Positions 3,188-60,875 of a stretch of DNA of 64,000 nt are shown here, in pieces. The stretch's first letter is position 1, and every line of letters starts with the position of its first letter. Position numbers and translations under genes: made by a program. The notes beneath the pieces were generated by a model, which was not told where the DNA came from, did no database searches, and was given only the letters and a program-made list of their open reading frames with translations. The DNA comes from a virus, in UHGV virus genome UHGV-0240317; one strand, 5' to 3'.

Positions 3188-3487
3188 TCACCAATACATA
3201 TAAGTGTTCTTAGCGGCTTTCTTTGGAGACTTGCTATCAATGTCAAAGTCTTCATCTAAGAAGGCTGTCTTAGAAAGCTGCCTGATTTGTGTTCTTGTAA
3301 GACGTTTAGTAGCCTTCTTAATCTCCCTACAAGGTTGACTTGTAAAGTCATAAGAGCCACCTTTTCTGGACATCATATCAGAATGGAAGTAGACATCTGA
3401 AGCATTTTCTCTGTTACGTACCTCATTTCTCCACTCATAGAGTCCATGAACGTTCTTTAAACCTTTTCTTCGAATTGTTTTACTCAT
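3188..3487 (-). CDS. hypothetical protein
   Basis: 99-aa ORF. Confidence 0.4.
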   Translation of the reverse strand: MSKTIRRKGLKNVHGLYEWRNEVRNRENASDVYFHSDMMSRKGGSYDFTSQPCREIKKATKRLTRTQIRQLSKTAFLDEDFDIDSKSPKKAAKNTYMYW

Positions 3488-3879
3488 TTAAACACCACCT
3501 GACAAGGAACCTGTTTAGTAATAAATTCTTCACAGTGCTCTTTAATGAAGTTTTGTAGTGGCACACAGTCTTGTGCACAAGTCATTAGCATAATGTACTC
3601 TGGATTCATGATGTTTTCAAGACTGTAGAAGACAACATCATCAGATAGTTCGTGACCATCTTCTTCAGACCAAGTTCCAGTGACTACAGCTAATTTGTCA
3701 AGCAATTCATTAGGCAATGCTACACCATCTTCTACAGAATCACTTAGAACGTTGTCGCCGATATACAATGTGAAGACCGTGTGGAATGTTGAGTATCTTA
3801 CATGATTCTTTTCACAAGAGCCACACTCTGAGGCATAATCTTTAATCCACTCTAACTGTTTTTGGCTCAACTTAATCAT
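3484..3879 (-). CDS. hypothetical protein
   Basis: 131-aa ORF with overlapping stop/start to neighbours. Confidence 0.45.
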   Translation of the reverse strand: MIKLSQKQLEWIKDYASECGSCEKNHVRYSTFHTVFTLYIGDNVLSDSVEDGVALPNELLDKLAVVTGTWSEEDGHELSDDVVFYSLENIMNPEYIMLMTCAQDCVPLQNFIKEHCEEFITKQVPCQVVFK

Positions 3880-4076
3880 AATTTCACCTTAGTTGGTAAT
3901 GCACTGAATGCTATGACTAACCCTAAAAATGGTTTGAAGCATGACCATAAATCCATCTGACCATGATATGAGAAACTCCATTGTGGGTCTGAAAAACCCC
4001 ATACCATAACACTAACCCCAAAGAAGAAGACTAGAATATGGAGTATGTATATCAACGCTTTTGATATCTTAAACAT
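3876..4076 (-). CDS. hypothetical small membrane protein
   Basis: 66 aa, hydrophobic segment ALIYILHILVFFFGVSVMVWGF. Confidence 0.4.
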   Translation of the reverse strand: MFKISKALIYILHILVFFFGVSVMVWGFSDPQWSFSYHGQMDLWSCFKPFLGLVIAFSALPTKVKL

Positions 4077-4229: not shown

Positions 4230-5177
4230 TTACATAGAAACCCTATCCTTAATTTCTGCCATCTTAGCGTCATTCATTCGAGACTGACCTTTAATTTTTG
4301 TGAATGACAAGTACCCGCACACCCTGTTAATCACAGAGATATCGTGTGAATGGCAAACCTCACACTCTTCAACATCAGCCTTTGGTCTGTTACCACAATG
4401 TTCACAGATTGCTAAGTCAAAGTTAAGTCCCTGATAGAAACCTTTCAACATCCCTCTTGTAATACAACTTTTAAGTGCTGATAAGTTTTCTGGATTAGCT
4501 ACCCTTACATACTGGATTCTGCCGCCTCTACAGATATGGAAGAAGGGTTCTTCTAAGTCCTGCTTCTCAAATGGTGAGATGTTTGCTGCAACATTCATAT
4601 GGAAACTGTTTGTGAAGTATTCCTTGTCAGAAACACCTTTAATAATCCCAAACATCTCTCTGAACTGTTTTAGCTGAGTTCCGCAAAGTGATTCTGCTGG
4701 AGTACCATAGACGGCATATAAGAAGCCATCTTCATTTTTAAACTCTTCGGTTTTCATGTTGATGTATGCCAGAACATCATATGCAAAGCTATAGTTTCCA
4801 ACTTCATGAAGTCGTTTACCTTCAGCAAGAACAGACAACTCATCAAGCGCAGTAACACCAAAAGAAGCTGTGAAGGACTTCACAATATCCCAACCAACCT
4901 TGTCAGTAGGCTTCTTAGTTCCTTTGTACAGACCACCTTGTGTAAATGCAAGAGGGTTAGAACTTGCTGGCATATTAGCAATCATTTCATAGCGTTTCTT
5001 GTGGAAACTACGAATCATCTCTAGGTACTTATCAAGCTCTTTCCAGAAATCTAAACCATTCTCTTTAGAGTACTGGTAAATCATCGGTAAGTTCAAAGAT
5101 ACAGCACCAATGTTTGCACGACCTACATAAAACTCTTCACCATATTCGTTATGGTATGGTGATAAAAATGCTCTACA
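4230..5177 (-). CDS. nrdD: anaerobic ribonucleoside-triphosphate reductase, exon 2 (C-terminal part with glycyl-radical motif)
   Basis: Open frame begins CRAFLSPYHNEYGEEF upstream of the ORF-track start; C-terminus has Cys cluster CEHCG...CEVCHSHD and glycyl radical motif RVCGYL; junction with exon 1 gives ...VISPMG|CRAFLSP... Confidence 0.8.
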   Translation of the reverse strand, partial: CRAFLSPYHNEYGEEFYVGRANIGAVSLNLPMIYQYSKENGLDFWKELDKYLEMIRSFHKKRYEMIANMPASSNPLAFTQGGLYKGTKKPTDKVGWDIVKSFTASFGVTALDELSVLAEGKRLHEVGNYSFAYDVLAYINMKTEEFKNEDGFLYAVYGTPAESLCGTQLKQFREMFGIIKGVSDKEYFTNSFHMNVAANISPFEKQDLEEPFFHICRGGRIQYVRVANPENLSALKSCITRGMLKGFYQGLNFDLAICEHCGNRPKADVEECEVCHSHDISVINRVCGYLSFTKIKGQSRMNDAKMAEIKDRVSM

Positions 5178-5919
5178 CTTGTTGTTCAGGTAAGTTCGCT
5201 AAGCTTACCCCGCTTTATTCAAGCTGCTTACTGTCGCCAGTAAGTCCAGACTATATCTTCTACTTATTTCTAAGTAGCGTACCATTTCGAGTCGCTTGAC
5301 CCTACACCGCTACATTCATCACGGTTAGTCGTTCGGCATTTAGATGTATTCAAACTCATATTCGAAGTTATTATGCTCTTTTACACCCTTCAATATTGAA
5401 GAGATGGTCTTGCGATTGTGTCCAAGTATATTGGATAACTCTCGTATTGACTTAGTAACAATAACTTCCTTTGTCACTTTGTGTGTGGCTTTCACGGCAT
5501 ATGAACGCTTGTGGAACTTGTAGCACCCGTTCTCATAACCCTCTTTAGCATTCTCAGAATGAGTACCCCATTCTAAGTTGGATGCGTGGTTATTTAGTTT
5601 GTTATCGTCCTTATGTTTTACAATTGGAAGATTATTTGGGTTAGGTACATATTTCTCAGCAACTAACCTGTGGACATACATGTCACGATTCTTCTTACCG
5701 TAAAACCTCACTTTCATATACCCAGTGTTGGATTTCCACTGCGTAAGCTCTACACCATTTTCCCTAAAGACTTTTCTATCTTCAGTGACGTGATAGTTTG
5801 GCATGTAAGACTCCTATGTTGTATAGTTTCTTACATCGTACATCATTTAGCACAGGATTGTCTACATCTGTAGAGTTTCCCTGTTTAGGCACGTTTTAGA
5901 TGAGCTATAGAGCTTGTTA
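5178..5919 (-). mobile_element. group I self-splicing intron in nrdD (with embedded HNH homing endonuclease ORF)
   Basis: Exon 1 ends with U (…AUGGGU|UAA), intron ends with G (…CUGAACAACAAG|); core elements CTAAACAGGGAAACTCTACAGATGTAGACAATCCTGTGCTAAAT and GTAGGGTCAAGCGACTCGAAATGG ... ATATAGTCTGGAC closely resemble the T4 td/nrd group IA2 intron core as remembered. Confidence 0.8.
5340..5804 (-). CDS. HNH homing endonuclease (intron-encoded)
   Basis: 154 aa; HNH motif HKDDNKLNNHASNLEWGTHSEN; ATG with AGGAG RBS; lies inside nrdD intron. Confidence 0.75.
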   Translation of the reverse strand: MPNYHVTEDRKVFRENGVELTQWKSNTGYMKVRFYGKKNRDMYVHRLVAEKYVPNPNNLPIVKHKDDNKLNNHASNLEWGTHSENAKEGYENGCYKFHKRSYAVKATHKVTKEVIVTKSIRELSNILGHNRKTISSILKGVKEHNNFEYEFEYI

Positions 5920-7116
5920 ACCCATCGGTGAAATAACCTTACCAGAACGCTCAAAAGCCTCTGCTACAGCACCATGACCAGATACACTTAAGAAGTCTGG
6001 ATACATTGCTTTAGAGCAACACTCAATAGCTTTACTGTACAGGTGACTTTGACAGATATTTTCATCATGTCTCTTCTGGTCATAAATATAAACCAGTTTA
6101 GGGAATACAACAGGTTTTTTGCTCTTGCCTTGTCCATTCATACGAACATCTAGGAGAGTACTTGCAATCATGTATTGTAGTCGATTATCCTCATTAGACA
6201 TATCTGAGTCAAGTAAACCAAATGTTAAAGTTGTGAATGCAAAATCACCACGGCTACAAGGTACGGTATTTAGTTTCATCTCAAGTGACTGAAAACCTTG
6301 AGTCAGTTCAATTTGTAACTGCTCCATTACATAATTGTGGTAATGCTCTTTAGGAATACCATAAGATGATGCTTTCTCAGCATGATAGCGTAGAGACTTC
6401 TTAGCATACGGTACAAGTACCTTATCAATCTCTGCTAAAGTAAAACCACCAAATTGCTGTGCAGTTGCTGAAAGTACTACGTCACCAATAACCTGCAACG
6501 CTGACAGTACAGATTTAGGTTCACAGTACTCAATGCCGGACATTTCAAAGCCACCTTTTAGTACTTTACCAATGTCAAACAGGCAACAGTTAATACCACC
6601 AAAAATCAGGTCTCTCAAATCGTGGATATAGATAAAGCCTTTCTCAATGGCTTCAAGTTCCTCTGGTGTTAGATGATACTGTTTAAAGATTTCTTTAGTC
6701 AGGTAACCACGGATAATTGAACCTTTCGTAGAAATTAAACTGCTGTCAAAGTTAGCATTTTCACGGTCACCTAAGAAGAGTGTATCTTTGGTCTTCTGGT
6801 AAAGCTCATCCCAATTTTGAGCAACTTCTTTACGGTAATTTCTATATGTTGAGTAAGACTCATAAATCTCGTGATTGACTTCTGCCAAAGCACCCTCAAC
6901 AATACTGTGAATATCATTTACAGAAATTAGCAAATTATTCTGCTTAGTGGACTTTACCAGAATCCTCATAAATGCTGACTCAAGAGCTTGGGTAACATCT
7001 GGTGGAAGTTCTTTATATCCAACCCTGTTAGCTGACTTTGTGACTGCTGCTAAAACTTTTTTGATATCAGGTTCTTCAAGTGAGCCATTCTTTTTAATAA
7101 TCTGTACTTTGTTCAT
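5920..7116 (-). CDS. nrdD: anaerobic ribonucleoside-triphosphate reductase, exon 1 (N-terminal ATP-cone and catalytic core)
   Basis: 399 codons starting MNKVQIIKKNGSLEEPDIKKV (ATP-cone-like); ends ...YPDFLSVSGHGAVAEAFERSGKVISPMG immediately before intron-borne stop. Confidence 0.8.
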
Positions 7117-20041: not shown

Positions 20042-20298
20042 GTAAGCCTCTTTTAAGTAACTATTAAGTTTTAATCTTTTATCTTAACGTATTCTATACG
20101 TTATACTTTAAAGCTTTTTAAAAGCTATTAAATAATCTTTTAAGAGTTTTAAAGTATCTGTATAGTTAAACTGTTAAGTAACCTTTTAAGTAAAAACCCA
20201 CTTCGCAAAGATTAACACCTTGTCAAGTGCATTGTCAACTTGCTTTTTATAATTTTTTGCAGTAATGTATGAGGTTAATGATTTTAGAGGGAGTAAAA

Positions 20299-22441
20299 AT
20301 GGAAAACGTAGATTTTAAAAACTTACATTTAGTTGGTGATACAGAAACTGATGGTTTACTCCTTGAGTTCACTAAAGTGCACGTAATGGCTTTCGCAGAC
20401 TATAAATCTGACGATGAAGAGCCACCTGTATGGGTCTTTACAGATGAGCCTATCCTCGGTCACAAGTATACCAAGTACATTAAGGGTGGCTTACGTGAAG
20501 GTGTTGAATTTGCGTTAAAGGCAAAACGTCTTTGCATCCATAATGGTCTCGGTTATGACTGGTGGGTTTTTAATCACATTGCACCTGATTTATGGAACTT
20601 TGATAATCCAAAGTGTAAACCGTGGAGTAATTTCTTTCAGGATTCTCTTATCCAGTCTCGTGTTCAGTGGATGGATAGACCAACCCCAAAAGGTTATAAG
20701 GGTGCTCATGGCTTGGCTGCATGGGGTGCTCGTGTTGGTGTCCGTAAACCAGAGATTGAACATTGGGGTGTGTGGAATGCAGAAATCTTCACTCGTGTTG
20801 TAGAAGATATCCGTATTAACGCCAAAACTAAACGGGCACTTGATAATGAATATCTCAAGCTTAAGAAGTGTGGCATAGATACTTATGAAACCTACATGCG
20901 AGCTAAAGAAACATCTTTTTGGATGAGTCAACAAGCTATCAATGGCTGGAAAGCTGATAAAGAGCTTATGGAGTTCCATGTAAAGGAACTTGACAAGTTG
21001 ACTAATGAGCTTGCTTCAGAGGTTGAACCACATCTACCTCCAACTATTAAGACCAAAGGTAAAGTCACTGGAGAAGAGTTTGCAAAAGCTTGGAATGAGT
21101 ATGTTGAAACATTTGGTCATGCAGATGGACTGAAGAGAATTACCAAGTACCCTAAGACAAAGTATCGTCAGCAGGTACGTAATGGTGAGATGCAGACTTA
21201 TGAAATCAAACCATTTGGTAAGCCAACTACAAAGATTTTTAACATTGAAAAGAGAAATTGCTATACACCAACCAACTCTGTAACTGGTGAAGAGTACAAG
21301 GAAGGTTTTGTAGCAATGAAGGATGCTCGTGCAATTTGCAATGAGTTGAATGCAAAGATTGGTAAGAAATGCAAAGACTGGAAGCCAGCAAAAACAGTTA
21401 AGACTGTGAAGTACTATAACAGCCATGTTGTTAACCACTTTGAGCTTGAGTCAAGTCGCTACACAGGTTTGATTGATGCACCATATACACCAATCGAGTT
21501 CGAAGTTTCTCGTATGACTCAGGTAGCAGTTGTTAAAGACTACTTGAAATCAGTTGGTTGGATTCCAGATGACTGGAACTATAAGAAAGACTCTGATGGT
21601 CGTCCTGTTAAGGTTTGTCGCTTCAAAGACAACAAAAAGATGATTACAAAGCATCCTAAATGGCAGGAAATGGTTGAACGGTGTGGTTTGAGCTATGTTG
21701 AACATGAAGGCGTCCAGTACATTGAGCATAACTGGTCTGTGAAGAAATACACAGATTTGCTTGAGCCTTGCTTAATCCGTACTTCACCAAAACTTACTGA
21801 ATCATCTTATGATACGATTGAAGGTGAGCTTGGACAGAAGATTGCTAAGTACTATACTTTGATGCACCGACGCAGAACTATTGAGAACTCAAAGGATGAT
21901 GAGAAAGGTTGGTTAAACCAGATTCGTCCTGATGGTCGCCTTAGTGCTGGTGCAATGGTGTTTGGTACTTCAACTGGACGTATGACACAATATGGTATTG
22001 TAAACGTACCGTCTGGTGCTGCTGTCTATGGAGCACCTATGAGGGAGGTGTGGATTTGTGAAGAGGGGACTAACATTGTTTCTGTTGACCAGAACTCAGC
22101 CCAGCTTGTTTTACTGTGTAACTTTATGGGTGATAAAGACTTCACCAAAGCAGTAACTGAAGGTAAAGAGTCAGTAGAGTTCACTAAGCAAGATGATGGT
22201 AGATACTACTGTAAACATCTTGACAAGTATCTTAACCCAGAAACTGACAAGTATCTGCGTTATGATGCTGAAAATGACCTCTATGAAGTCTACACAGGGA
22301 CTGATGCGCATACACTGAACAGTATTTACTTTGGTCTTAACAAGGAAGAAGATATTGTCCGTTGTAGGGAGACACAGGGTGAGGAACTTCTCCACGAGAT
22401 TACAAAAGGTCGTAAGAAAGCCAAAAATGGCATTTATGCGT
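20299..22441 (+). CDS. DNA polymerase family A (T7 gp5-like), exon 1 (3'-5' exonuclease and N-terminal polymerase domains)
   Basis: ATG 20299 with GAGGGAG RBS; exo motifs LVGDTETDGL and HNGLGYDWWV; exon ends ...RKKAKNGIYA + U, before in-frame stop located in intron. Confidence 0.8.
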
Positions 22442-22709
22442 CAGTGGCGCATGTAAAACGTTGTGAATTGCTGGAAGCCTAAGTCTGTAAAGATATGGTA
22501 ATCAGCAGCGAAGCCTCTTGAGAGGAACGTTCAGAGACTATCGAAAAGCATACTTAATGTATGAACTGAGTAGAGTAGGGTGGTAAGCTAATGACCATAC
22601 CCAAGTGCAACGGTAGCATCACTGCTACGTGATATAGTCCGACACTCCGTAGAAATGCGGAGAAGTTCATAAGAGAACTGGTACACCTTGCGAGTGTATT
22701 GACCAGATG
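22442..22709 (+). mobile_element. ORF-less group I intron in DNA polymerase gene
   Basis: P1: exon ATGCGU pairs with intron GCGCAU (U-G at splice site); P7 strands GTTCAGAGACTATCG and GATATAGTCCGAC; terminal G at 22709; splicing restores ...NGIYALLFGAGDEKF matching T7 pol motif YGFLYGAGDEK. Confidence 0.75.
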
Positions 22710-23266
22710 TATTGTTCGGTGCAGGTGATGAGAAGTTTGCCAAAACCATTAAGGCAGCTTCTACAGAGGAAGGTGCATTGACTAAGCAGACCTACTATAT
22801 GCGTCTACCAAAGATTAAGAAACTACTTGATAGCTTAGAAGCCGATTTTAAGGCGTCTAAAAAGGCTCTGGAAGAGGTTTTTGGGAAGAATTCTTCAATT
22901 GCTAAAGGTGGTTATATCAGAGTCGCTGGAGCATGGATATGGTGCAAATCTCCACATAAACTACTGAACTACCTCCTGATGAGTTCGGAAGCACAGATTC
23001 AGAATGAGGCCATCAACCTAGCAGCAAGAAAAGCCTGTGAAGATGGCCTGACAAAACTGAATGCTCGAAAACCAGCTATCGGAGCAAGGTTACTTCTGGC
23101 ATATCACGATGAAAATAGTTGGGAATGTCCAGAGGGTATGACACAGGATATGAAAGCAATTGCTGACTGGATGTATGGACAAGCTTCAAAAAACTTAGGT
23201 TTGAGGAAAGAAACACTTGTAACTGGTACAGCAAAGGTTGGTAAGAGCTGGTATGAGGTGCATTGA
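22710..23266 (+). CDS. DNA polymerase family A, exon 2 (motif B/C region to C-terminus)
   Basis: Begins (L)LFGAGDEKFAK; contains ...AYHDENSWECPEG (motif C-like HDE) and C-terminal ...WYEVH. Confidence 0.8.
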
Positions 23267-23269
23267 TTG

Positions 23270-23803
23270 ATGGATTTTATTTCACAAAAACGTTTAAAGG
23301 AGCTACTACACTATGACCCCGAAACAGGGGTCTTTACTTGGCTTCGTAGAGAAGGTAAATCAAGAGCTGTTAGTGTTTTTAACAGTAACTATGCAGGAAA
23401 GGTAGCAGGTAATGTTCAGACAGATTCAACTGGTCATAAACAGATTAGTATCTATTTTGACAAGAAAGCACATAAAGCACACAGACTCGCATGGCTTTAT
23501 GTATATGGCAAGATGCCAAAAGGTATCATTGACCATATCAACGGAGACTCTCTTGACAACAGGATTGCAAACTTAAGGGAAGCAGATGACTTCCAAAGTG
23601 CTTGGAATAAAGGTAAACTAGCCACCAATAAATCTGGGTACAAGGGTGTAAGCCTTAAGAAGAAGTCTGGTAAGTGGGTCGCACAGATAAGTTATAAAGG
23701 TAAGAAGATGTTTTTAGGTTACCATGACACCCCTGAAGAAGCCCATAAAGCTTACTGTGAAGCTGCTATGAAACTCCACGGAGAGTTTGCAAAACTAAGT
23801 TGA
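23270..23803 (+). CDS. HNH homing endonuclease with AP2 DNA-binding domain (free-standing, abutting DNA polymerase gene)
   Basis: HNH region HRLAWLYVYGKMPKGIIDHINGDSLDNRIANL; AP2-like SGYKGVSLKKKSGKWVAQISYKGKKMFLGYHDTPEEAHKAY. Confidence 0.75.
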   Translation: MDFISQKRLKELLHYDPETGVFTWLRREGKSRAVSVFNSNYAGKVAGNVQTDSTGHKQISIYFDKKAHKAHRLAWLYVYGKMPKGIIDHINGDSLDNRIANLREADDFQSAWNKGKLATNKSGYKGVSLKKKSGKWVAQISYKGKKMFLGYHDTPEEAHKAYCEAAMKLHGEFAKLS

Positions 23804-55259: not shown

Positions 55260-55335
55260 TGGAGAATCCGAAGGGACTCGAACCCTTATAAGCCTGTTTT
55301 GCAGACAGGCACATAGCCATTTCTGTCACGGATTC
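55260..55335 (-). tRNA. tRNA-Cys (anticodon GCA)
   Basis: Acceptor GAATCCG/CGGATTC, T-arm GGGTTCGAGTCCC, anticodon loop CTGCAAA, encoded CCA. Confidence 0.75.
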
Positions 55336-55339
55336 AAAT

Positions 55340-55432
55340 TGGAGGAAGATACCAGACTTGAACTGGTACACCGATTTCTCAGCTACTGGCAGTTTAGCAA
55401 ACTGCTCCCTTACCTTTTAGGGTTAATCTTCC
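55340..55432 (-). tRNA. tRNA-Ser (anticodon GCT), class II
   Basis: 93 nt with long variable arm; anticodon loop TTGCTAA; T-arm ACCAGTTCAAGTCTGGT; CCA. Confidence 0.7.
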
Positions 55433-55433
55433 A

Positions 55434-56009
55434 TTATTTCTGTAATGCGTTCTTCATTTCTGGTGTTGCAATAGTGTCAATCACACCAGTTTTACAAGCA
55501 TCATCAAACCAGTCTGGTAAGATACCTGCTAAGAACCCATTGATATTCGTTTTAAGGTACTCTGCAATAAGGGCAGCTTCTTCTTCAATCATCTGCACAA
55601 CTTCATCTGCATAAGCTGTAATCTTTGAGATACCTTCATTAATCTTACTGACAGCTTGGTTAGCTAAATCAGAAACAGTATCAAGACCCTTATCAATAGC
55701 ATCTTGTAAGTCACTTAATACACCATTAACACTATCCAATGTACTGTTCATCATGTCAATAGCTTTTTGACCATACTCTGTAGCAACACCCATAATACCA
55801 CTGAATGGTGTACAACCAACTTGTTCTCCTGCTGCACCCATAACATTGGAGTATCCCTTTGCTACCTGCATACGTGATGAAAACTCATCAATAGACTTTT
55901 GACCGTAGTCTGTTAGGGTCTTAGTAGTTGCTGTAGTGCTTGTAAGGCTTGTTGTAAAGCTGTTTAGAAGGACTGTTGTAAGTCCAGCAGCAACAAGTTT
56001 CTCCTTCAT
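55434..56009 (-). CDS. hypothetical protein embedded in tRNA cluster
   Basis: 191-aa ORF, Ser/Thr/Ala-rich, helical. Confidence 0.4.
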   Translation of the reverse strand: MKEKLVAAGLTTVLLNSFTTSLTSTTATTKTLTDYGQKSIDEFSSRMQVAKGYSNVMGAAGEQVGCTPFSGIMGVATEYGQKAIDMMNSTLDSVNGVLSDLQDAIDKGLDTVSDLANQAVSKINEGISKITAYADEVVQMIEEEAALIAEYLKTNINGFLAGILPDWFDDACKTGVIDTIATPEMKNALQK

Positions 56010-56185
56010 TGTAGGGTCTGTTACAGAGCTAATAGAGCTTACAAGTGATGTAGAAGCAGCTACGGTTCCACCGAGAACTGCTGCACCAGTAATAAGTGGG
56101 TTAGAGAACCCTTTACCGGTTTTTTAAGAGATTAAAAATCTCCTTACCTTGTTCTGTCATCTCTTTCATTAAGCACCTTTGAAAT

Positions 56186-56261
56186 TGGTAGTCCAGTGGG
56201 ATTTGAACCCTCTTCTCATGTTTTTCAGACACGCGCTTTAACCATATAAGCTACTTGGACT
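56186..56261 (-). tRNA. tRNA-Phe (anticodon GAA)
   Basis: Anticodon loop CTGAAAA; T-arm GGGTTCAAATCCC; CCA. Confidence 0.7.
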
Positions 56262-56267
56262 ATAAAT

Positions 56268-56343
56268 TGGGGTGACCTACGGGATTTGAACCCGTATAGA
56301 CCATGTTCACAGCATGGGTCATTACCATTTATGATAAGGCCAC
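56268..56343 (-). tRNA. tRNA-His (anticodon GTG)
   Basis: Anticodon stem-loop CCATG-CTGTGAA-CATGG; T-arm CGGGTTCAAATCCCG. Confidence 0.7.
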
Positions 56344-56374
56344 ATTTAAGGACTCTCGCAAGAATCCTTAGAAG

Positions 56375-56450
56375 TGGCAGCGGCATAAGGATTTGAACCT
56401 TAATAGGACAGCTTCAGAGGCTGCTGCATTGCCAGTTATGCTATACCGCT
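56375..56450 (-). tRNA. tRNA-Gln (anticodon CTG)
   Basis: D-stem GCAT/ATGC, anticodon loop CTCTGAA, T-arm TAAGGTTCAAATCCTTA, CCA. Confidence 0.65.
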
Positions 56451-56455
56451 AAATT

Positions 56456-56534
56456 TGGTACTCCATATCGGATTCGAACCGATACATAACACAGATTTTA
56501 AGTCTGGCCTCTCTGCCAATTGGAGTAATGGAGC
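56456..56534 (-). tRNA. tRNA with anticodon TAA (Leu-type anticodon but class-I-like length)
   Basis: Anticodon loop CTTAAAA; T-arm ATCGGTTCGAATCCGAT; 7-nt variable region; isotype uncertain. Confidence 0.5.
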
Positions 56535-56536
56535 AT

Positions 56537-56611
56537 TGGCGGGGGATGTTGGAATTGAACCAACTTCTTCGATTTCAAAGACCGAGGTTTTAACCTTGTA
56601 AACTAATCCCC
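56537..56611 (-). tRNA. tRNA-Gln (anticodon TTG)
   Basis: Anticodon stem-loop TCGGT-CTTTGAA-ATCGA; T-arm GTTGGTTCAATTCCAAC; CCA. Confidence 0.6.
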
Positions 56612-56620
56612 TTTAAATCT

Positions 56621-57178
56621 TTACTTTCTCAGTGGATGAATAAAGAATGCCAACATAACTCTTTCCCTTGAGAATGCTCTTTCTTCTGGGACAACACTTT
56701 TTAGTTTCCATCCAATATAAATTCTCCAGTAAAACTGTTTACCAAAGACTTTAATTGATGGGATAAAAGCGAATAATCCCCAAGCATTACTGTTCCACAT
56801 TAGGAGATAACCTGTCTGATTATCTTCAGGGTCAGAACTTACGTTGATATTACCTTTCCACTTAGTAACATCTTTTACATCTCTTCCTAATACATGGTAA
56901 GAGAAGTTATAAGCTTTGTTTCTCCAGAGCCATCCGACTCTCTGCATGTAGACACCCAGCTTACCAATCTTTCTAATCTTAGCCCATCTTTTAACGTGGC
57001 CTTCATCACCATCAATCGGGTTGTCATAGGTCTCCATCCATCTGAATCCAAAAGGTAGATGCCCTTTCTTCTCACTGTAGAATGGAACTACGAAAGGTGC
57101 TAAGATGACTGCTAGGGTTGCTGCAAATGGTTCTAACAAAGCTAGGAAAATCCATGAAGCATATTTTAAATATCTCAT
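56621..57178 (-). CDS. hypothetical membrane protein embedded in tRNA cluster
   Basis: 185 aa; N-terminal TM segments IFLALLEPFAATLAVILAPFVV. Confidence 0.45.
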   Translation of the reverse strand: MRYLKYASWIFLALLEPFAATLAVILAPFVVPFYSEKKGHLPFGFRWMETYDNPIDGDEGHVKRWAKIRKIGKLGVYMQRVGWLWRNKAYNFSYHVLGRDVKDVTKWKGNINVSSDPEDNQTGYLLMWNSNAWGLFAFIPSIKVFGKQFYWRIYIGWKLKSVVPEERAFSRERVMLAFFIHPLRK

Positions 57179-57417
57179 CGTCTAATCCTTGTAAGGAGAT
57201 AAATGTTATTATTCGTTTCTAAACCTTCTGGTAAAACTGTCTCAAAAATAACACTCTTTAGCTGTCTACCACCAAAACAATCACGTATAAATCTTTCTAC
57301 TCTAGCGGGGTCACATAAGTACCCTACTTTTAAGAAAATGTGGTGTTCAACACCAATGACCCTGACAAACTCAATATTCTCACAGTTTTCATGTTCAACT
57401 ACTGTTAATGTTTGCAT
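57175..57417 (-). CDS. hypothetical protein
   Basis: 80-aa ORF. Confidence 0.4.
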   Translation of the reverse strand: MQTLTVVEHENCENIEFVRVIGVEHHIFLKVGYLCDPARVERFIRDCFGGRQLKSVIFETVLPEGLETNNNIYLLTRIRR

Positions 57418-57434
57418 AGTATCACCTTTTTATC

Positions 57435-57510
57435 TGGCGCAGGATAAGGGATTCGAACCCCTATTAACAGCTTCGTAGACTGTTGCTCTATCCATTTGAA
57501 CTAATCCTGC
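57435..57510 (-). tRNA. tRNA-Arg (anticodon ACG)
   Basis: Anticodon stem-loop ACAGT-CTACGAA-GCTGT; T-arm AGGGGTTCGAATCCCTT; CCA. Confidence 0.75.
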
Positions 57511-57515
57511 AAAAT

Positions 57516-57593
57516 TGGTGTTCCAAGACGGATTCGAACCGTCACTAATACAAGGTTTGAGCTTGCATCCTCTTCCAATTGGGATACTGGAAC
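57516..57593 (-). tRNA. tRNA with anticodon CAA (Leu-type anticodon but class-I-like length)
   Basis: Anticodon loop CTCAAAC; T-arm GACGGTTCGAATCCGTC; perfect acceptor stem; isotype uncertain. Confidence 0.5.
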
Positions 57594-57594
57594 A

Positions 57595-57669
57595 TGGTAC
57601 TCACTAAAGGACTTGAACCTTTTTCTTCATCTTGTAAGGGTGATGTTTTACCATATAAACTAAGCGAGT
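57595..57669 (-). tRNA. tRNA-Val (anticodon TAC)
   Basis: Anticodon loop CTTACAA; T-arm AAAGGTTCAAGTCCTTT; CCA. Confidence 0.65.
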
Positions 57670-57674
57670 GTGAA

Positions 57675-57760
57675 AGAGGTCTGAAGTTGTGCCGCTAACT
57701 CAACTCCGTGGAATTTGTTACGGTCTTCAGTTGACACCAGCGGTCTTTCACTTGACCTCT
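57675..57760 (-). ncRNA. structured non-tRNA element in tRNA cluster (7-bp closing stem AGAGGTC/GACCTCT, inner 6-bp stem CTGAAG/CTTCAG)
   Basis: No T-loop/CCA; contains GAAGACCGT box related to the repeated elements at 59928-60707. Confidence 0.3.
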
Positions 57761-57764
57761 GAAT

Positions 57765-57841
57765 TGGTGCTGCTCACAGGACTCGAACCTGCATTTCCAT
57801 CCTTACAAGGGATGTGTAATAGCCAATTATACGAAAGCAGC
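57765..57841 (-). tRNA. tRNA-Thr (anticodon TGT)
   Basis: Anticodon stem-loop CATCC-CTTGTAA-GGATG; T-arm GCAGGTTCGAGTCCTGT; CCA. Confidence 0.65.
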
Positions 57842-57847
57842 ATTGTT

Positions 57848-57922
57848 TGGAGCATCCAGAGGGAATCGAACCCTCAACCTCAGTTTGGAAGACTGTAATT
57901 TTCCCGTTTAAACTATGGATGC
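57848..57922 (-). tRNA. tRNA-Gly (anticodon TCC)
   Basis: Anticodon loop CTTCCAA; T-arm GAGGGTTCGATTCCCTC; CCA. Confidence 0.7.
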
Positions 57923-57928
57923 ACTAAT

Positions 57929-58004
57929 TGGTGGAGAAGCAGGGAATTGAACCCTGTACTTAAGTTTGCAAAACTTATGTTTTAACCATGTAAACTACAT
58001 CCCC
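57929..58004 (-). tRNA. tRNA-Ala (anticodon TGC)
   Basis: Anticodon stem-loop TAAGT-TTTGCAA-ACTTA; T-arm CAGGGTTCAATTCCCTG; CCA. Confidence 0.65.
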
Positions 58005-58010
58005 AATGTC

Positions 58011-58086
58011 TGGTACAGGTGGAGGGAATTGAACCCATCGTCTTACTGATTAAGAGTCAGCCGCATAACCATTTTGCTACACCTGC
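58011..58086 (-). tRNA. tRNA-Lys (anticodon CTT)
   Basis: Anticodon loop CTCTTAA; T-loop TTCAATT; acceptor GCAGGTG/CACCTGT; CCA. Confidence 0.6.
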
Positions 58087-58093
58087 ATTAATT

Positions 58094-58170
58094 TGGTACA
58101 CCTAGAGAGATTCGAACTCACACTGAGCAGATTCTAAGTCTGCTGCCTCTACCAATTGGGTTATAGGTGC
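58094..58170 (-). tRNA. tRNA with anticodon TAG (Leu-type anticodon but class-I-like length)
   Basis: Anticodon stem-loop GCAGA-CTTAGAA-TCTGC; T-loop TTCGAAT; isotype uncertain. Confidence 0.5.
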
Positions 58171-58171
58171 A

Positions 58172-58624
58172 TTAAATCAAATGTCTTGAGAATTGACTGT
58201 GGCAATTTGGACACAAGAACCGAAGATTCTCTTTTCTATCATCTAACCAGTTCTCGTTAATGTGGTCAACATCAAGAGTTAGAGGATTACCCAACCAATC
58301 AGGTAACTGACCACATTTAGAGCACTTGTATTCGACACCAGAGGCTATTAAAGCTCTTCTTAGTTGTGAAGACCTCGCTCTTTCACCAGATTCACGTAGA
58401 ATTAGGATTTCTTCAGGCTTTCTTTTTGGTACAGTTTTAATCTTACCAGCCTTTTGTCCGAGAAAATGAGAAGTGTCTATTTCAAACTTTTCTATAACAC
58501 GCTTTAGATGTGACTGAGAACCACCTGCTGGTTTTCTCCCAAGCTTAATAAGTACTTCTCTGAATGATACTGAATCCTTTACTAAAGGTTCAAGAATATC
58601 TTTAGTCAAACTGCTGCGTGCCAT
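58172..58624 (-). CDS. HNH endonuclease (free-standing, inside tRNA cluster)
   Basis: 150 aa; C-terminal HNH/zinc motif CSKCGQ...LDVDHINENW...NLRFLCPNCH. Confidence 0.7.
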   Translation of the reverse strand: MARSSLTKDILEPLVKDSVSFREVLIKLGRKPAGGSQSHLKRVIEKFEIDTSHFLGQKAGKIKTVPKRKPEEILILRESGERARSSQLRRALIASGVEYKCSKCGQLPDWLGNPLTLDVDHINENWLDDRKENLRFLCPNCHSQFSRHLI

Positions 58625-58894
58625 GTGTCAATCTCCCATTAAATCTTTTTAGAGAACTTCTAAGAACCTAAGCAACAAGGTTCCACAACAAGCTGTAATA
58701 ACCTTAGAAGCCCTCTAAAAAGACCTAAAAAGGTCTTTGCATAGTCTTGTTTAATCCGGTGACTAGAACCTTTGGAGAGCTTGATATTATCTCTTCTCCG
58801 TGACACCTACTAGGTGCTTTATCAGTGCGTACAACAATACACGCGGTATACCAAAGCAACATCCGAATGAAGCTTGGCTTTAAATCTTATTAGG

Positions 58895-58982
58895 CGGTAA
58901 GTAAAGGAGTCGAACCCTCACCGTATCTCTACAGTGGCAACAGTTTTCAAGACTGTTTGGCTGCCATTAGCCGCTACCTACC
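58895..58982 (-). tRNA. tRNA-Ser (anticodon TGA), class II
   Basis: 88 nt; anticodon stem-loop ACAGT-CTTGAAA-ACTGT; long variable arm; T-arm GAGGGTTCGACTCCTTT; CCA not encoded. Confidence 0.6.
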
Positions 58983-58995
58983 CCTAATAAGACTT

Positions 58996-59078
58996 TGGCA
59001 TGGGACGGAGGATTTGAACCCCTTTGAAACGGTTTTGGAGGCCGTTGCTCATGCCTTAGAGTCTTAACATCGTCCCAT
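58996..59078 (-). tRNA. tRNA-Trp-like (anticodon CCA) with enlarged D-loop
   Basis: Perfect acceptor ATGGGAC/GTCCCAT, T-arm GGGGTTCAAATCCTCC, anticodon loop CTCCAAA on a 4-bp stem; 83 nt. Confidence 0.45.
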
Positions 59079-59220
59079 ATTATAATTCGAAGCTTACCGT
59101 ATTATCTCAACACTGTAAAGCCCCTTCTCAGATTATTTACATGTTCTGGAAAACATGAGATACAGACCACCTCCCTACAGGAAGACCCGCTTAGGTCGTC
59201 TAAGTAATCTGCTAACTAAT

Positions 59221-59297
59221 TGGCACACCCTACAGGATTCGAACCTGTAACTAACGATTTAGAAGACCGTTGCTCTATCCAATTGAACTAAGGGTGC
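59221..59297 (-). tRNA. tRNA-Arg (anticodon TCT)
   Basis: Anticodon stem-loop ACGGT-CTTCTAA-ATCGT; T-arm ACAGGTTCGAATCCTGT; CCA. Confidence 0.7.
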
Positions 59298-59544
59298 ATT
59301 AATCTTTAAAGACTCTCTGAGAAAGCCCTTAAAGATGCCCACCTTATTAATCATACCGTGGGCTAGTACGCCAAATTCTTCGATGAGGGATTGGAAGACC
59401 TCACTGGTGTTTAGCCTATCAAGCTACTGCCAGAAAAACATTGTCGTTTGCATTTATTTTAAATTTGCAAAATAGACGCTACGCAACGAAAACTAAGGTT
59501 ACTATAAAGTAGTCACATCTCAATGTCAACAACTTTATTGAAAG

Positions 59545-59619
59545 TGGTTGTAGGTGAGGGTATCGAACCCTCTTCTAACGGTTATCAGCCGTTTGCATTA
59601 CCATTTATGCTAACCCACA
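59545..59619 (-). tRNA. tRNA-Ile (anticodon GAT)
   Basis: Anticodon stem-loop AACGG-CTGATAA-CCGTT; T-arm GAGGGTTCGATACCCTC; CCA. Confidence 0.7.
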
Positions 59620-59621
59620 AT

Positions 59622-59698
59622 TGGAGGTTCAGATGGGAATCGAACCCACATTCATAGGGCTTATGAGACCCTTGCATTACCTTATCTGCGACTGAACC
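59622..59698 (-). tRNA. tRNA-Met (anticodon CAT)
   Basis: Anticodon loop CTCATAA; T-arm GTGGGTTCGATTCCCAT; perfect acceptor GGTTCAG/CTGAACC. Confidence 0.65.
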
Positions 59699-59702
59699 AT
59701 AT

Positions 59703-59778
59703 TGGTAGAAGTGGAGGGATTCGAACCCATCGCCTGTCAGATTAAAAGTCTGCCGCATCACCATTCTGCTACACTTCC
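59703..59778 (-). tRNA. tRNA-Lys (anticodon TTT)
   Basis: Anticodon loop CTTTTAA; T-loop TTCGAAT; CCA. Confidence 0.6.
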
Positions 59779-59927
59779 ATTAAATTATCTTTGTAGATAA
59801 GCTACCCAGACTTGCTTAAGGTCTGTAGCGATGTGTATTGTTGGGTTTAAATCTAGAATTTACCCTTTCACCCTTTGTGGTCGCATACTCACAGGTAAGC
59901 TTAATAACTTATCTACAAAGATAATTA

Positions 59928-60060
59928 CCAGACCGTTGTTTAACATCTTAAGTGCTACCATTACACCAACTCGACATCTGCCGAGTGAAGGAATCGAACC
60001 TTCTCCTTTTCTTTACCGGAGAAATAGATTGTTTAAAGTTTGCTGTAAACGGTCTTCTGT
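59928..60060 (-). ncRNA. structured RNA element (repeat-family member 3) containing a tRNA-like module without anticodon arm
   Basis: Closing stem ACAGAAGACCGTT/AACGGTCTGG; interior has canonical T-arm GAAGGTTCGATTCCTTC, 7-bp acceptor-like hairpin ACTCGGC-agat-GTCGAGT and D-arm-like GTGT-AATGGTA-GCAC. Confidence 0.35.
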
Positions 60061-60072
60061 AAATTTGTTGAG

Positions 60073-60151
60073 CCAGACCAAGTTTTAAAATTTTTTCAAA
60101 ATTAAATTGGCTTGAAAATATCATACGTACTTGCTGTAATTGGTCTTCTGC
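60073..60151 (-). ncRNA. structured RNA element (repeat-family member 4)
   Basis: Plus-strand CCAGACC...TTGCTGTAATTGGTCTTCTGC; same terminal boxes as members 1-3. Confidence 0.3.
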
Positions 60152-60211
60152 TCCTTTAAAGAATACTCGTAAGAACTCTTTAAGGGAGGGGCTAAATAGC
60201 CCTCTCAAAAT

Positions 60212-60289
60212 TGGCGGTTACGAAGGGATTTGAACCATCATCATCTCCCGTGACAGGGGAGTATTTTAACCAAATTAAACTACATAACC
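60212..60289 (-). tRNA. tRNA-Asp (anticodon GTC)
   Basis: Anticodon stem-loop CTCCC-CTGTCAC-GGGAG; T-loop TTCAAAT; CCA. Confidence 0.7.
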
Positions 60290-60294
60290 TTTAT

Positions 60295-60382
60295 TGGTGT
60301 GCCGTGTAGGAGTCGAACCTACCGAGTCTCAATGACAAGGGATTTACAGTCCCCACCGCTACCATCTACGGGATAACGACAC
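60295..60382 (-). tRNA. tRNA-Tyr (anticodon GTA), class II
   Basis: 88 nt; anticodon stem-loop GGGGA-CTGTAAA-TCCCT; long variable arm; T-arm GTAGGTTCGACTCCTAC; CCA. Confidence 0.7.
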
Positions 60383-60391
60383 ATTTAAATT

Positions 60392-60468
60392 TGGCGGTTA
60401 GTCAGGGATTCGAACCCTGTGCCATTCGCTTAACAGGCGACCGCACATACCTTATGTGCTTCCTAACC
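60392..60468 (-). tRNA. tRNA-Asn (anticodon GTT)
   Basis: D-stem GCAC/GTGC; anticodon loop CTGTTAA; T-arm CAGGGTTCGAATCCCTG; CCA. Confidence 0.7.
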
Positions 60469-60479
60469 TTAATACATTG

Positions 60480-60541
60480 CCAGACCGTGTTTTTTCTTTT
60501 ATCCGCAAAAAGTATTTTGTTGCTGTAAACGGTCTTCTGTA
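60480..60541 (-). ncRNA. structured RNA element (repeat-family member 1)
   Basis: Plus-strand CCAGACCG...TTGCTGTAAACGGTCTTCTGT; on minus strand directly follows tRNA 3' end. Confidence 0.3.
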
Positions 60542-60545
60542 AATT

Positions 60546-60621
60546 TGGAGGCGGGTGCAGGAGTCGAACCTGCCGATACCATGCTAATGAGACATGTGAG
60601 ACGCCCTTTCTCTATACCCGC
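60546..60621 (-). tRNA. tRNA-Met-type (anticodon CAT), second copy
   Basis: Anticodon stem-loop CATGT-CTCATTA-GCATG; T-arm GCAGGTTCGACTCCTGC; could be initiator or Ile-lysidine type. Confidence 0.55.
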
Positions 60622-60633
60622 AATTCTTAATGA

Positions 60634-60707
60634 CCAGACCAAATCTCTTCTTTGTCCGATTTACCTTCAGATGAATAAGATTAAGTTTGCTGTAATTGGT
60701 CTTCTGT
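60634..60707 (-). ncRNA. structured RNA element (repeat-family member 2)
   Basis: Plus-strand CCAGACC...TTTGCTGTAATTGGTCTTCTGT. Confidence 0.3.
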
Positions 60708-60713
60708 CAAAAC

Positions 60714-60791
60714 TGGCGTTCCAGAAGGGATTTGAACCCTCAGATATCCACTTTGAAAGAGTGGTGACTTTACCATTTTGTCTACTGGAAC
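60714..60791 (-). tRNA. tRNA-Glu (anticodon TTC)
   Basis: Anticodon stem-loop CCACT-CTTTCAA-AGTGG; T-arm GAGGGTTCAAATCCCTT; CCA. Confidence 0.7.
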
Positions 60792-60798
60792 ATTAATT

Positions 60799-60875
60799 TG
60801 GTCTCTGTTGGAGGACTTGAACCTCCGGCCTTACCGCCCCAAACGGAACGCTCTACCAAGCTGAGCTAAACAGAG
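60799..60875 (-). tRNA. tRNA-Pro (anticodon TGG)
   Basis: D-arm GCTC-AGCTTGGTA-GAGC; anticodon loop TTTGGGG; T-arm GGAGGTTCAAGTCCTCC; CCA. Confidence 0.75.

What the first reader, a model, noticed from the sequence alone, without database searches (positions are those of the whole stretch)
5178..5919. Group I intron with an HNH (not GIY-YIG) homing endonuclease in nrdD
The nrdD reading frame is restored exactly as ...VISPMG|CRAFLSP... when 5178-5919 is removed. The intron core strongly resembles T-even phage group IA2 introns as I recall them, but the embedded ORF is an HNH endonuclease, whereas I recall the T4 nrdD intron carrying a GIY-YIG enzyme. That would indicate independent endonuclease invasion or shuffling between introns.
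Basis: partly seen in the sequence, partly recalled or inferred. Interest (0 to 1): 0.6.

Follow-up and report, generated by a model that had tools for sequence, protein, structure and literature searches.

The report
Mobile self-splicing intron in phage nrdD
A Felix O1-like phage carries a mobile self-splicing group I intron, with its own HNH homing endonuclease, just before the catalytic cysteine codon of its anaerobic ribonucleotide reductase gene; it is an ordinary kind of element that databases annotate only as a split gene.

Summary
Window 5919..5178 (minus strand, 742 nt) interrupts nrdD between Gly399 and Cys400. Natural intron-less alleles (Felix O1, wV8) confirm both boundaries to the base. 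The insert has a T4-like group IA2 core. On eight related introns, 85 proposed pairs are 99.8% paired and 42 show compensatory changes. The embedded 154-aa ORF is an I-HmuI-like HNH endonuclease under strong purifying selection (dN/dS about 0.06).

Felix O1-like phages show three states: intron-less, HNH-bearing, and an in-frame ORF-deleted derivative. A roughly 54-nt tract of exon 2 travels with the intron, which is a co-conversion signature of homing.

T4's nrdD intron lies about 110 codons upstream and carries I-TevII 3' of P9, so this is a different intron, not T4's with a swapped enzyme. The same intron-plus-HNH composite occupies the same site in JSE (T4-related), Vequintavirus, Justusliebigvirus (phi92, annotated as spliced) and Vibrio phages.

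Verdict: a new member of a known kind and mainly an annotation gap. Splicing and cleavage are inferred, not shown.

The parts
5920..7116 (-). nrdD exon 1 (399 codons: ATP-cone plus the N-terminal half of NrdD), ending ...SPMG
   Evidence: ORF list. Pfam ATP-cone and NRDD profile positions 1-250. Alignment to T4 NrdD.
5178..5919 (-). Group I (IA2-like) intron, 742 nt. It starts with an in-frame UAA and ends in G.
   Evidence: Exact presence/absence against intron-less alleles. The ORF-deleted natural derivative scores 54.4 bits on RF00028 (gathering score 50), and the phi92 homolog scores 70.6. Covariation analysis.
5899..5926 (-). P1/P10 guide region. The 5' exon GAUGGGU (5926..5920) pairs with the internal guide GCUCAUC (5905..5899), with U.G at the splice site. 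The adjacent GCUCUAUA (5913..5906) pairs with the first 8 nt of exon 2.
   Evidence: Read from the sequence; coordinates. P1 shows 7 pairs, 100% paired in 8 introns, with changes on both sides at 2 pairs.
5839..5898 (-). 5' half of the core: J1/3, P3 (5893..5888), P4 (5884..5879), P5/P5' (5874..5861), P4' (5857..5852), P6 (5851..5850) and the P6a 5' strand (5844..5839).
   Evidence: P3 has 5 of 6 pairs with compensatory changes; P6a has 6 of 8.
5340..5804 (-). HNH homing endonuclease ORF (154 aa) looped out of P6a. AGGAG lies 7 nt upstream of the ATG. The last two sense codons form the P6a 3' strand.
   Evidence: Pfam HNH_3. Full-length match to I-HmuI, PDB 1U3E, E = 2.3e-8. Invariant His64, Asp67, Asn72, Asn76 and Asn85 in the clade. 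dN/dS 0.05-0.06.
5178..5348 (-). 3' half of the core: P6a' (5348..5343), P6', J6/7, P7 (5330..5326), P7.1, P7.2, P3' (5283..5278), P8, J8/7 (5259..5254), P7' (5253..5249), P9 with a GCGA loop (5244..5227), P9.1, P9.2, and the tail ending in omega-G at 5178.
   Evidence: Rfam partial match 5407..5227, 33.1 bits, E = 2e-6. Helix coordinates. Covariation.
4230..5177 (-). nrdD exon 2 (315 codons plus stop), beginning at the Cys400 codon and including the glycyl-radical domain.
   Evidence: There is no ATG/GTG/TTG between the 3' splice site and the TTG at 5096, and an in-frame stop lies 8 codons inside the intron.
5124..5177 (-). Exon-2 tract (+1..+54) that co-segregates with the intron. It is the probable co-conversion tract and the probable endonuclease recognition region.
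   Evidence: It differs at 13-14 of 60 positions from all three intron-less alleles and at only 0-3 of 60 among intron-bearing alleles. The same tract sits in momo on an otherwise C600M2-like background.

Best explanation
A mobile, self-splicing group I intron of the T4-like IA2 type sits in the nrdD gene of a Felix O1-like phage, immediately before the catalytic cysteine codon.

Splicing (inferred). After transcription the RNA folds into P1-P9.2. An external guanosine attacks the U.G pair at the end of exon 1, and the terminal G of the intron then directs exon ligation, with P10 aligning exon 2. This restores a 714-aa NrdD. The in-frame UAA at the first intron codon stops ribosomes at the splice site.

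Homing (inferred). The intron's P6a loop carries an I-HmuI-like HNH endonuclease. In mixed infections this enzyme is expected to nick or cut intron-less nrdD alleles close to the insertion site, most likely contacting the first ~55 bp of exon 2. Recombinational repair from the intron-bearing genome then copies the intron plus short exon flanks into the recipient.

Shown here: the exact boundaries, the conserved and covarying RNA structure, an intact endonuclease gene under selection, the three allele states, and co-conversion tracts.

Inferred only: catalysis of splicing, endonuclease activity and the position of its cut.
For: - Boundaries and frame.
- Only splicing can express Cys400 and the next 26 residues. 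There is no start codon between the 3' splice site and position 5096.
- RNA family: RF00028 scores 54.4 bits (gathering score 50) for the natural ORF-deleted allele, whose core is identical to the window's across the aligned stretch. The phi92 same-site homolog scores 70.6 bits.
- Structure: 14 helices and 85 pairs; 99.8% of cells are paired; 42 pairs changed on both sides; 0 of 500 shuffles reach this; slid controls give 31-44% paired.
- The invariant P7 and J8/7 are shared with T4 td and nrdD, introns the literature describes as self-splicing (PMC2988022).
- Constraint: between the window and LNA1 the core differs at 7 of 277 positions, while synonymous sites in the ORF have dS 0.49 and dN/dS is 0.06.
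- HNH: Pfam HNH_3, full-length homology to I-HmuI, and catalytic His and Asn invariant across homologs of 41-49% identity.
- Mobility: among 225 Felix O1-like records there are roughly 60 HNH-bearing, 35 ORF-deleted and 120 intron-less alleles (estimated).
- Co-conversion: the exon-2 tract is linked to the intron on two different genetic backgrounds.
Against: - There is no experimental evidence of splicing or cleavage for this element in any paper I could find.
- The window copy itself scores only 33.1 bits on RF00028, below the gathering score of 50, because the ORF splits the core.
- I aligned the structural alignment by hand to the proposed structure, which favours paired cells.
- In this clade the residue aligned with I-HmuI's Asp just before the catalytic His is Lys, Cys or Arg. 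From my recollection of the I-HmuI structure that Asp is a metal ligand, so the metal site may be built differently.
- nrdD is probably dispensable in aerobic laboratory growth, so weak splicing would be tolerated.
Confidence: 0.88

Rival explanations
1. Genes in pieces. The HNH gene has simply split nrdD, and the two halves are translated separately and assemble after translation without RNA splicing. This is the Aeromonas phage Aeh1 nrdA/mobE case.
For: GenBank and RefSeq records annotate two separate nrdD CDSs plus an HNH CDS. The Aeh1 precedent is cited in PMC3653736 and PMC7344957.
Against: The 27 codons after the insert, including the Cys aligned with T4 Cys290, have no start codon and are preceded by an in-frame stop. 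A separately translated C-terminal piece would begin at 5096 and lack the active-site cysteine. The insert carries a complete, covarying group I core that is far better conserved than synonymous sites. Nothing in this model explains that conservation.
Confidence: 0.05
2. One reading: this is the T4 nrdD (sunY) intron in which the GIY-YIG gene I-TevII was replaced by an HNH gene through endonuclease shuffling.
For: Same host gene, a similar IA2 core (71% identity to the T4 nrdD core), and a different endonuclease family.
Against: The insertion sites are about 110 codons apart. The ORF lies in P6a here but 3' of P9 in T4. The core is no closer to T4 nrdD than to the same-site introns of other phages (67-72%). 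The HNH-intron composite is conserved at this site in five phage lineages.
Confidence: 0.03
3. A decaying element. The intron still splices, but the HNH enzyme is no longer an active homing endonuclease. It might be inactive, or retained as a maturase or regulator, with the intron spreading only by ordinary recombination.
For: The residue aligned with I-HmuI's Asp before the catalytic His is replaced. About 35 records carry an ORF-deleted intron, on at least two backgrounds, so spread without a cis-encoded enzyme happens.
Against: dN/dS is about 0.06 over dS of about 0.49. The HNH His and Asn residues are invariant across 40-53% diverged homologs. Short, sharply bounded co-conversion tracts next to the insertion site are what break-initiated homing produces. 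The Asp replacement is shared by the whole clade, with an invariant Asp67 three residues after the His.
Confidence: 0.12

Closest known systems
nrdD intron of Escherichia phage phi92 (annotated 'spliced variant') and its HNH-bearing versions in Justusliebigvirus (arall, phiWec187), Vequintavirus (HMD-6, JEP1, phiWec191), Krischvirus JSE and Vibrio phages (F101, 1.084.O)
   Same: Identical insertion site (...MG|C...). The same IA2 core with P7.1/P7.2 and P9.1/P9.2. A homologous I-HmuI-like HNH (39-53% aa identity) in the same P6a loop, with its 3' end forming the P6a 3' strand.
   Different: The cores are only 67-72% identical. In those relatives the ORF reads on through P6', J6/7 and P7 (...EMPND*), whereas here a UAA in the P6/P6a internal loop ends it 5 codons earlier. 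P9 differs by three compensatory pairs, and P10 is 8 bp here against 5 bp.
Phage T4 td intron with I-TevI
   Same: IA2 core; the 3' half matches at about 71% by blastn. The ORF is looped out of P6a and its end overlaps the core. An in-frame UAA lies at the first intron codon. It inserts in a conserved nucleotide-metabolism gene.
   Different: The host gene is thymidylate synthase. The enzyme is GIY-YIG, not HNH. td has a P2 element that is absent here.
Phage T4 nrdD (sunY) intron with I-TevII
   Same: Same host gene and a 71% identical IA2 core.
   Different: It is inserted about 110 codons upstream, at Tyr180 rather than Cys290. Its ORF lies 3' of P9 and encodes a GIY-YIG enzyme.
I-HmuI, the HNH endonuclease of the Bacillus phage SPO1 DNA polymerase intron (PDB 1U3E)
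   Same: The proteins are homologous end to end (E = 2.3e-8, residues 5-152 against 14-169). They share the HNH_3 motif and a C-terminal helix-turn-helix-like region, and both are intron-encoded.
   Different: Different host gene and phage group. The Asp preceding the catalytic His in I-HmuI is Lys here. From my own knowledge, I-HmuI nicks one strand; whether this enzyme nicks or cuts both strands is unknown.
I-TevIII, the HNH enzyme of the T4/RB3 nrdB intron
   Same: An HNH-family enzyme encoded in the P6 region of a T-even IA2 intron in a ribonucleotide reductase gene (PMC1865063).
   Different: No detectable sequence similarity to the T4 I-TevIII remnant (best E = 0.3). It is a different HNH subfamily, in a different gene (nrdB).

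Membership tests
Group I intron (Rfam RF00028) | The 5' exon ends in U and forms a U.G wobble with the internal guide sequence (P1). | tested here: met
   GAUGGGU (5926..5920) pairs with GCUCAUC (5905..5899). U.G is invariant in all 8 aligned introns.
Group I intron (Rfam RF00028) | The intron ends in G (omega-G), and P10 aligns the 3' exon. | tested here: met
   The intron ends ...ACAACAAG|UGU. An 8-bp P10 (GCUCUAUA with UGUAGAGC) is contiguous with P1.
Group I intron (Rfam RF00028) | A conserved core P3-P8 with the P3/P7 pseudoknot, P7 and J8/7. | tested here: met
   All helices are present. P7 (GACUA with UAGUC) is invariant and J8/7 (AAGAUA) is nearly so, shared with T4 td and nrdD. P3, P4, P5, P6a and P8 show compensatory changes.
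Group I intron (Rfam RF00028) | A score at or above the Rfam gathering threshold (50 bits). | tested here: inconclusive
   The window copy scores 33.1 bits (E = 2e-6) for the 3' half and 15.5 bits for the 5' half, because the 465-nt ORF splits the core. The natural ORF-deleted allele, with an identical core across the aligned stretch, scores 54.4 bits, and phi92 scores 70.6.
Group I intron (Rfam RF00028) | Guanosine-dependent self-splicing. | not testable with these tools
   This needs in-vitro GTP labelling or RT-PCR.
Subgroup IA2 (T-even phage type) | Extra helices P7.1 and P7.2 between P7 and P3', plus P9.1 and P9.2. | tested here: met
   P7.1 (ACCG with CGGU), P7.2 (GGGUC with GACUC), P9.1 and P9.2 are all present and covary. 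This definition of the subgroup comes from my own knowledge.
HNH homing endonuclease, I-HmuI-like (Pfam HNH_3) | The HNH_3 domain above the Pfam cut-off. | tested here: met
   41.2 bits against a cut-off of 24.8, E = 1.2e-10, residues 43-86.
HNH homing endonuclease, I-HmuI-like (Pfam HNH_3) | Catalytic His and the Asn residues of the HNH motif conserved. | tested here: met
   His64, Asn72, Asn76 and Asn85 are invariant in six clade members of 41-99% identity.
HNH homing endonuclease, I-HmuI-like (Pfam HNH_3) | An Asp immediately before the catalytic His (DH in I-HmuI). | tested here: not met
   The aligned residue is Lys63 here, and Lys, Cys or Arg in relatives. An invariant Asp67 follows the His. 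That the I-HmuI Asp is a metal ligand is my recollection of the structure paper.
HNH homing endonuclease, I-HmuI-like (Pfam HNH_3) | Site-specific nicking or cleavage of the intron-less allele. | not testable with these tools
   This needs a biochemical assay.
Mobile (homing) intron | Presence/absence polymorphism at one precise site among close relatives. | tested here: met
   Intron-less, HNH-bearing and ORF-deleted alleles occur within Felix O1-like phages.
Mobile (homing) intron | Co-conversion of flanking exon sequence. | tested here: met
   Exon 2 positions +3..+54 are linked to the intron. In the first 60 nt of exon 2, momo differs from its close relative C600M2 at 17% of positions, against 1-7% in the other bins.
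Phage T4 nrdD (sunY) intron / I-TevII | The same insertion site and a GIY-YIG ORF 3' of P9. | tested here: not met
   The site is about 110 codons away. The ORF is an HNH gene in P6a.

The most novel reading that the evidence does not exclude
One intron-plus-HNH composite has moved between unrelated phage groups: Ounavirinae, Straboviridae (JSE), Vequintavirinae, Stephanstirmvirinae and Vibrio myophages. Each time it landed on the codon boundary before the thiyl-radical cysteine of NrdD. That would be cross-family homing driven by an endonuclease that recognises the most conserved stretch of the enzyme. A 2010 review of T4-related genomes saw 'no convincing evidence' that such elements move across phage clusters (PMC2993671). 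Felix O1-like phages would then offer a natural time series of the homing cycle: empty site, active endonuclease, deleted endonuclease.
Probability: 0.6. Interest if true: 0.45.

Novelty: new member of a known kind. Interest (0 to 1): 0.3.

Why it matters
Practical value: more than 90 Felix O1-like genomes, many of them proposed as biocontrol or therapy phages, annotate nrdD as two genes plus a 'homing endonuclease'. Their exon 2 starts at an arbitrary internal codon. The gene should be annotated as a spliced join.

Biological value: the element adds a well-sampled case to a known theme, in which mobile group I introns target catalytic-site codons of ribonucleotide reductase genes. All three stages of the homing cycle, and clear co-conversion tracts, are visible in one phage genus. 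Homologs at the same site occur in at least four other phage lineages. This makes it a convenient system for testing cross-lineage intron transfer and the target recognition of an I-HmuI-type enzyme. It does not change any concept.

Tried and rejected
- Rfam at gathering threshold on the whole window missed this intron. It found only a second one, in the DNA polymerase gene. The relaxed scan found two partial matches.
- My first recollection of the T4 nrdD intron sequence was in fact the td intron. Extracting T4 nrdD showed a different site.
- An automatic MAFFT alignment of the ORF-less cores misplaced several helices. I replaced it with a hand-segmented alignment, padded with N so that the tool kept the register.
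- SUSP2 as an intron-less comparator for momo was unusable beyond +360 because an indel broke my ungapped comparison. I used C600M2 instead.
- The promoter scan gave one sigma-70-like site inside the intron upstream of the ORF (5864..5835), but the region holds no more sites than shuffles do: 9 found against 9.1 expected.
- A hairpin over the ORF's ribosome-binding site has z = -1.6, which is not significant, and it is not conserved in LNA1.
- There is no similarity to the T4 I-TevIII remnant or to the window's other HNH ORF beyond the motif itself.
- The phi92 genome paper (PMC3457257) is not held in the library.
- I did not use the large protein or metagenome searches. The phage collection already answered the question.

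Full report
**What the window is.** The 901 bases around the finding are 98-99% identical to many Felix O1-like phages (genus Felixounavirus), such as FSL SP-010, Mushroom and Si3. The window is therefore not a T-even phage. It has the Felix O1 nrdA-nrdB-grx-nrdD-nrdG cluster on the minus strand and a large tRNA block.

**Checking the observation.**
- On the minus strand, a 399-codon ORF (7116..5920) carries an ATP-cone and the first half of the NrdD profile.
- The frame that opens at 5177 (CRAFLSP...) carries the second half and the glycyl-radical domain.
- Joining 5920 to 5177 gives a 714-aa protein with no internal stop.
- Intron-less relatives (Felix O1, wV8, NRG857CP1) read CCGATGGGT|TGCAGAGC at exactly this point. 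The 742-nt insert 5919..5178 is therefore delimited by natural empty sites, not only by frame arguments.
- The exon-1 codon GGT is followed directly by an in-frame TAA.

**It is a group I intron.**
- *Rfam.* At its curated threshold Rfam misses the intron, because a 465-nt ORF splits the core. A relaxed scan finds the 3' half at 33.1 bits (E = 2e-6) and the 5' half at 15.5 bits.
- *The ORF-deleted allele.* About 35 Felix O1-like records carry a 316-nt version in which the ORF has been removed by an in-frame 426-nt deletion. It keeps ATGCCA and the last 33 nt of the ORF. Its core is identical to the window's across the aligned stretch, and it scores 54.4 bits (gathering score 50). The ORF-less homolog in phi92 scores 70.6 bits.
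- *Helices.* I assigned P1, P10, P3-P9, P7.1, P7.2, P9.1 and P9.2 by comparison with the T4 td and nrdD introns (coordinates).
- *Covariation test.* I tested the structure on eight introns: the window, phi92, HMD-6, phiWec191, two Vibrio phages, T4 td and T4 nrdD. Of 85 pairs, 99.8% of cells are paired and 42 pairs changed on both sides. None of 500 shuffles matches this, and sliding the partners drops pairing to 31-44%. The alignment was hand-fitted to the structure, which inflates the paired fraction. The compensatory changes are plain in the sequences, for example P3 CGUGCC/GGUACG against UCUAUC/GAUAGA and CACCUC/GGGGUG.
- *Splice-site pairings.* P1 has the U.G wobble at the splice site. 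The intron ends in G. An 8-bp P10 lies directly beside P1 in the guide sequence.
- *Subgroup.* P7.1 and P7.2 place it in the T-even IA2 type.

**It must splice for NrdD to work.** The cysteine just after the insert aligns with Cys290 of T4 NrdD in SPMGCR. From my own knowledge of the T4 NrdD structure, that is the thiyl-radical cysteine. The 27 codons from the 3' splice site to the first possible start (TTG at 5096) contain no ATG, GTG or TTG, and an in-frame stop lies 8 codons inside the intron. A 'genes in pieces' arrangement would therefore lose the active-site cysteine.

Between the window and phage LNA1, the RNA core differs at 7 of 277 positions, while synonymous sites of the embedded ORF have diverged to dS 0.49. 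The core is under strong constraint.

**The ORF.**
- The 154-aa protein matches Pfam HNH_3.
- It aligns end to end with I-HmuI, the HNH endonuclease of the SPO1 DNA polymerase intron (PDB 1U3E, E = 2.3e-8).
- His64, Asp67, Asn72, Asn76 and Asn85 are invariant across clade members that are only 41-49% identical.
- dN/dS is 0.05-0.06.
- One departure: the Asp that precedes the catalytic His in I-HmuI is Lys here, and Lys, Cys or Arg in relatives.
- The ORF sits in the P6a loop, and its last two sense codons form the P6a 3' strand.
- It is unrelated to the I-TevIII remnant of T4.

**Evidence of mobility.**
- *Allele states.* Among 225 Felix O1-like records, roughly 60 carry the HNH-bearing intron, about 35 the ORF-deleted intron, and about 120 none. 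These are estimates from the coverage and place counts.
- *Linked exon tract.* All intron-bearing alleles share a tract in exon 2, positions +3 to +54. It differs from every intron-less allele examined at 13-14 of 60 positions, mostly at third codon positions, against 0-8% elsewhere.
- *A second background.* Phage momo is 93-99% identical per bin to the intron-less phage C600M2 across 1.7 kb of nrdD. The exception is the first 60 nt of exon 2 (17% different), where momo matches the window instead.
- *Reading.* Intron plus a short donor flank on a foreign background is the classic co-conversion signature. It suggests, by inference, that the enzyme recognises the start of exon 2.

**Comparison with T4.** T4's nrdD intron (1033 nt) splits codon Tyr180 (AYE|YEV). 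Its GIY-YIG ORF, I-TevII, begins after P9. The window's intron is about 110 codons downstream and has its ORF in P6a. The core is about as close to T4 nrdD (71%) and td (66.5%) as to the same-site introns elsewhere (67-72%). So this is not T4's nrdD intron with a swapped enzyme.

**The real relatives.** The same MG|C site is occupied by a homologous intron with a homologous HNH in the same loop in five other groups:
- the T4-related phage JSE, at 53% aa identity;
- Vequintavirus phages HMD-6, JEP1 and phiWec191;
- Justusliebigvirus phages arall and phiWec187;
- phi92, where the ORF has been lost and GenBank annotates a 'spliced variant';
- several Vibrio phages, at 39-44% identity.

These rest. 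In all, 113 phage records hold the enzyme at E <= 1e-24.

**Literature.**
- The Felix O1 genome paper reported no introns, which is correct for that intron-less strain (PMC3185647).
- Later papers describe nrdD of UAB_Phi87, HB-2014 and JH2 as 'interrupted by a homing endonuclease', without mentioning an intron (PMC4837284 and PMC3728262).
- One paper lists 'two introns' from an RNA scan of SPJ41 without detail (PMC9951933).
- A 2010 review counts only three endonuclease-bearing introns in T4-related phages and does not list the JSE nrdD one (PMC2993671).
- I found no splicing or cleavage experiment for this element.

**Verdict.** This is a genuine, probably active, mobile group IA2 intron with an I-HmuI-type HNH homing endonuclease. 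It is a new, well-populated member of a well-known kind and chiefly an annotation gap.

Noticed in passing
window 22379-22662 (+), with ORFs 20269-22482 and 22712-23266: A second, ORF-less group I intron (RF00028, 62.3 bits, above the gathering score) splits the family-A DNA polymerase gene near the ...AKNGIY / FGAGDEK motif. Relatives show three states here too: no intron (for example Shigella phage Z31, with a span about 268 nt shorter), the ORF-less form as in the window, and a version about 530 nt longer annotated 'endonuclease VII' (PMBT20, JH2, pEP20).
   Followed up: partly
window 23267-23803 (+): A free-standing HNH_3 + AP2 endonuclease ORF (178 aa) starts one base after the stop codon of the split DNA polymerase gene. 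It is not closely related to the nrdD intron HNH (E = 0.014). An ORF-less intron with a free-standing endonuclease next to it resembles the published cases of introns mobilised in trans.
   Followed up: partly
window 4230-5096 (-), and the matching CDSs in public records (e.g. L001 3405-4271): Public annotations start 'nrdD part 2' at an internal TTG or ATG, which leaves out 27 codons including the catalytic cysteine. Exon 1 is annotated as ending at the intron's first codon. More than 90 records share this mis-annotation. Of the records I examined, only phi92 annotates a join.
   Followed up: yes
L015 (JEP1) 1-1412 and L010 (Vibrio phage F101) 1-2337: In these phages nrdD is interrupted a second time, further upstream, by another ORF (an HNH endonuclease in F101, a hypothetical protein in JEP1). 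nrdD can therefore carry at least two insertions besides the T4 site.
   Followed up: no
Hits H250-H252 (Campylobacter phages A142, A13b, A135, ~140 kb): Records labelled as Campylobacter jejuni phages carry an HNH with the same identity and E-value to the window's enzyme as Vequintavirus phiWec191 (50.4%, 1e-33). Two 'Campylobacter' records and one 'Staphylococcus' record also match Felix O1-like nrdD exons. The host labels or the samples may be mixed up.
   Followed up: no
window 55263-60875 (-): A block of 24 tRNA genes on the minus strand (Rfam tRNA hits of 31-63 bits), typical of Felix O1-like genomes.
   Followed up: no
L001 (Mushroom) 4336-4836 compared with window 3484-4076: Phage Mushroom has an extra NUMOD3-type homing endonuclease gene between nrdD and nrdG. 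The window instead has two small ORFs (131 and 66 aa). This is another endonuclease presence/absence difference in the same gene cluster.
   Followed up: no
L004 (phi92) 2499-2744 compared with L017 (arall) and L012 (phiWec187): phi92 lost the whole HNH ORF through a clean deletion. Its P6a helix is still intact. This parallels the independent in-frame ORF deletion seen in Felix O1-like phages such as momo and MBP4696116.
   Followed up: partly
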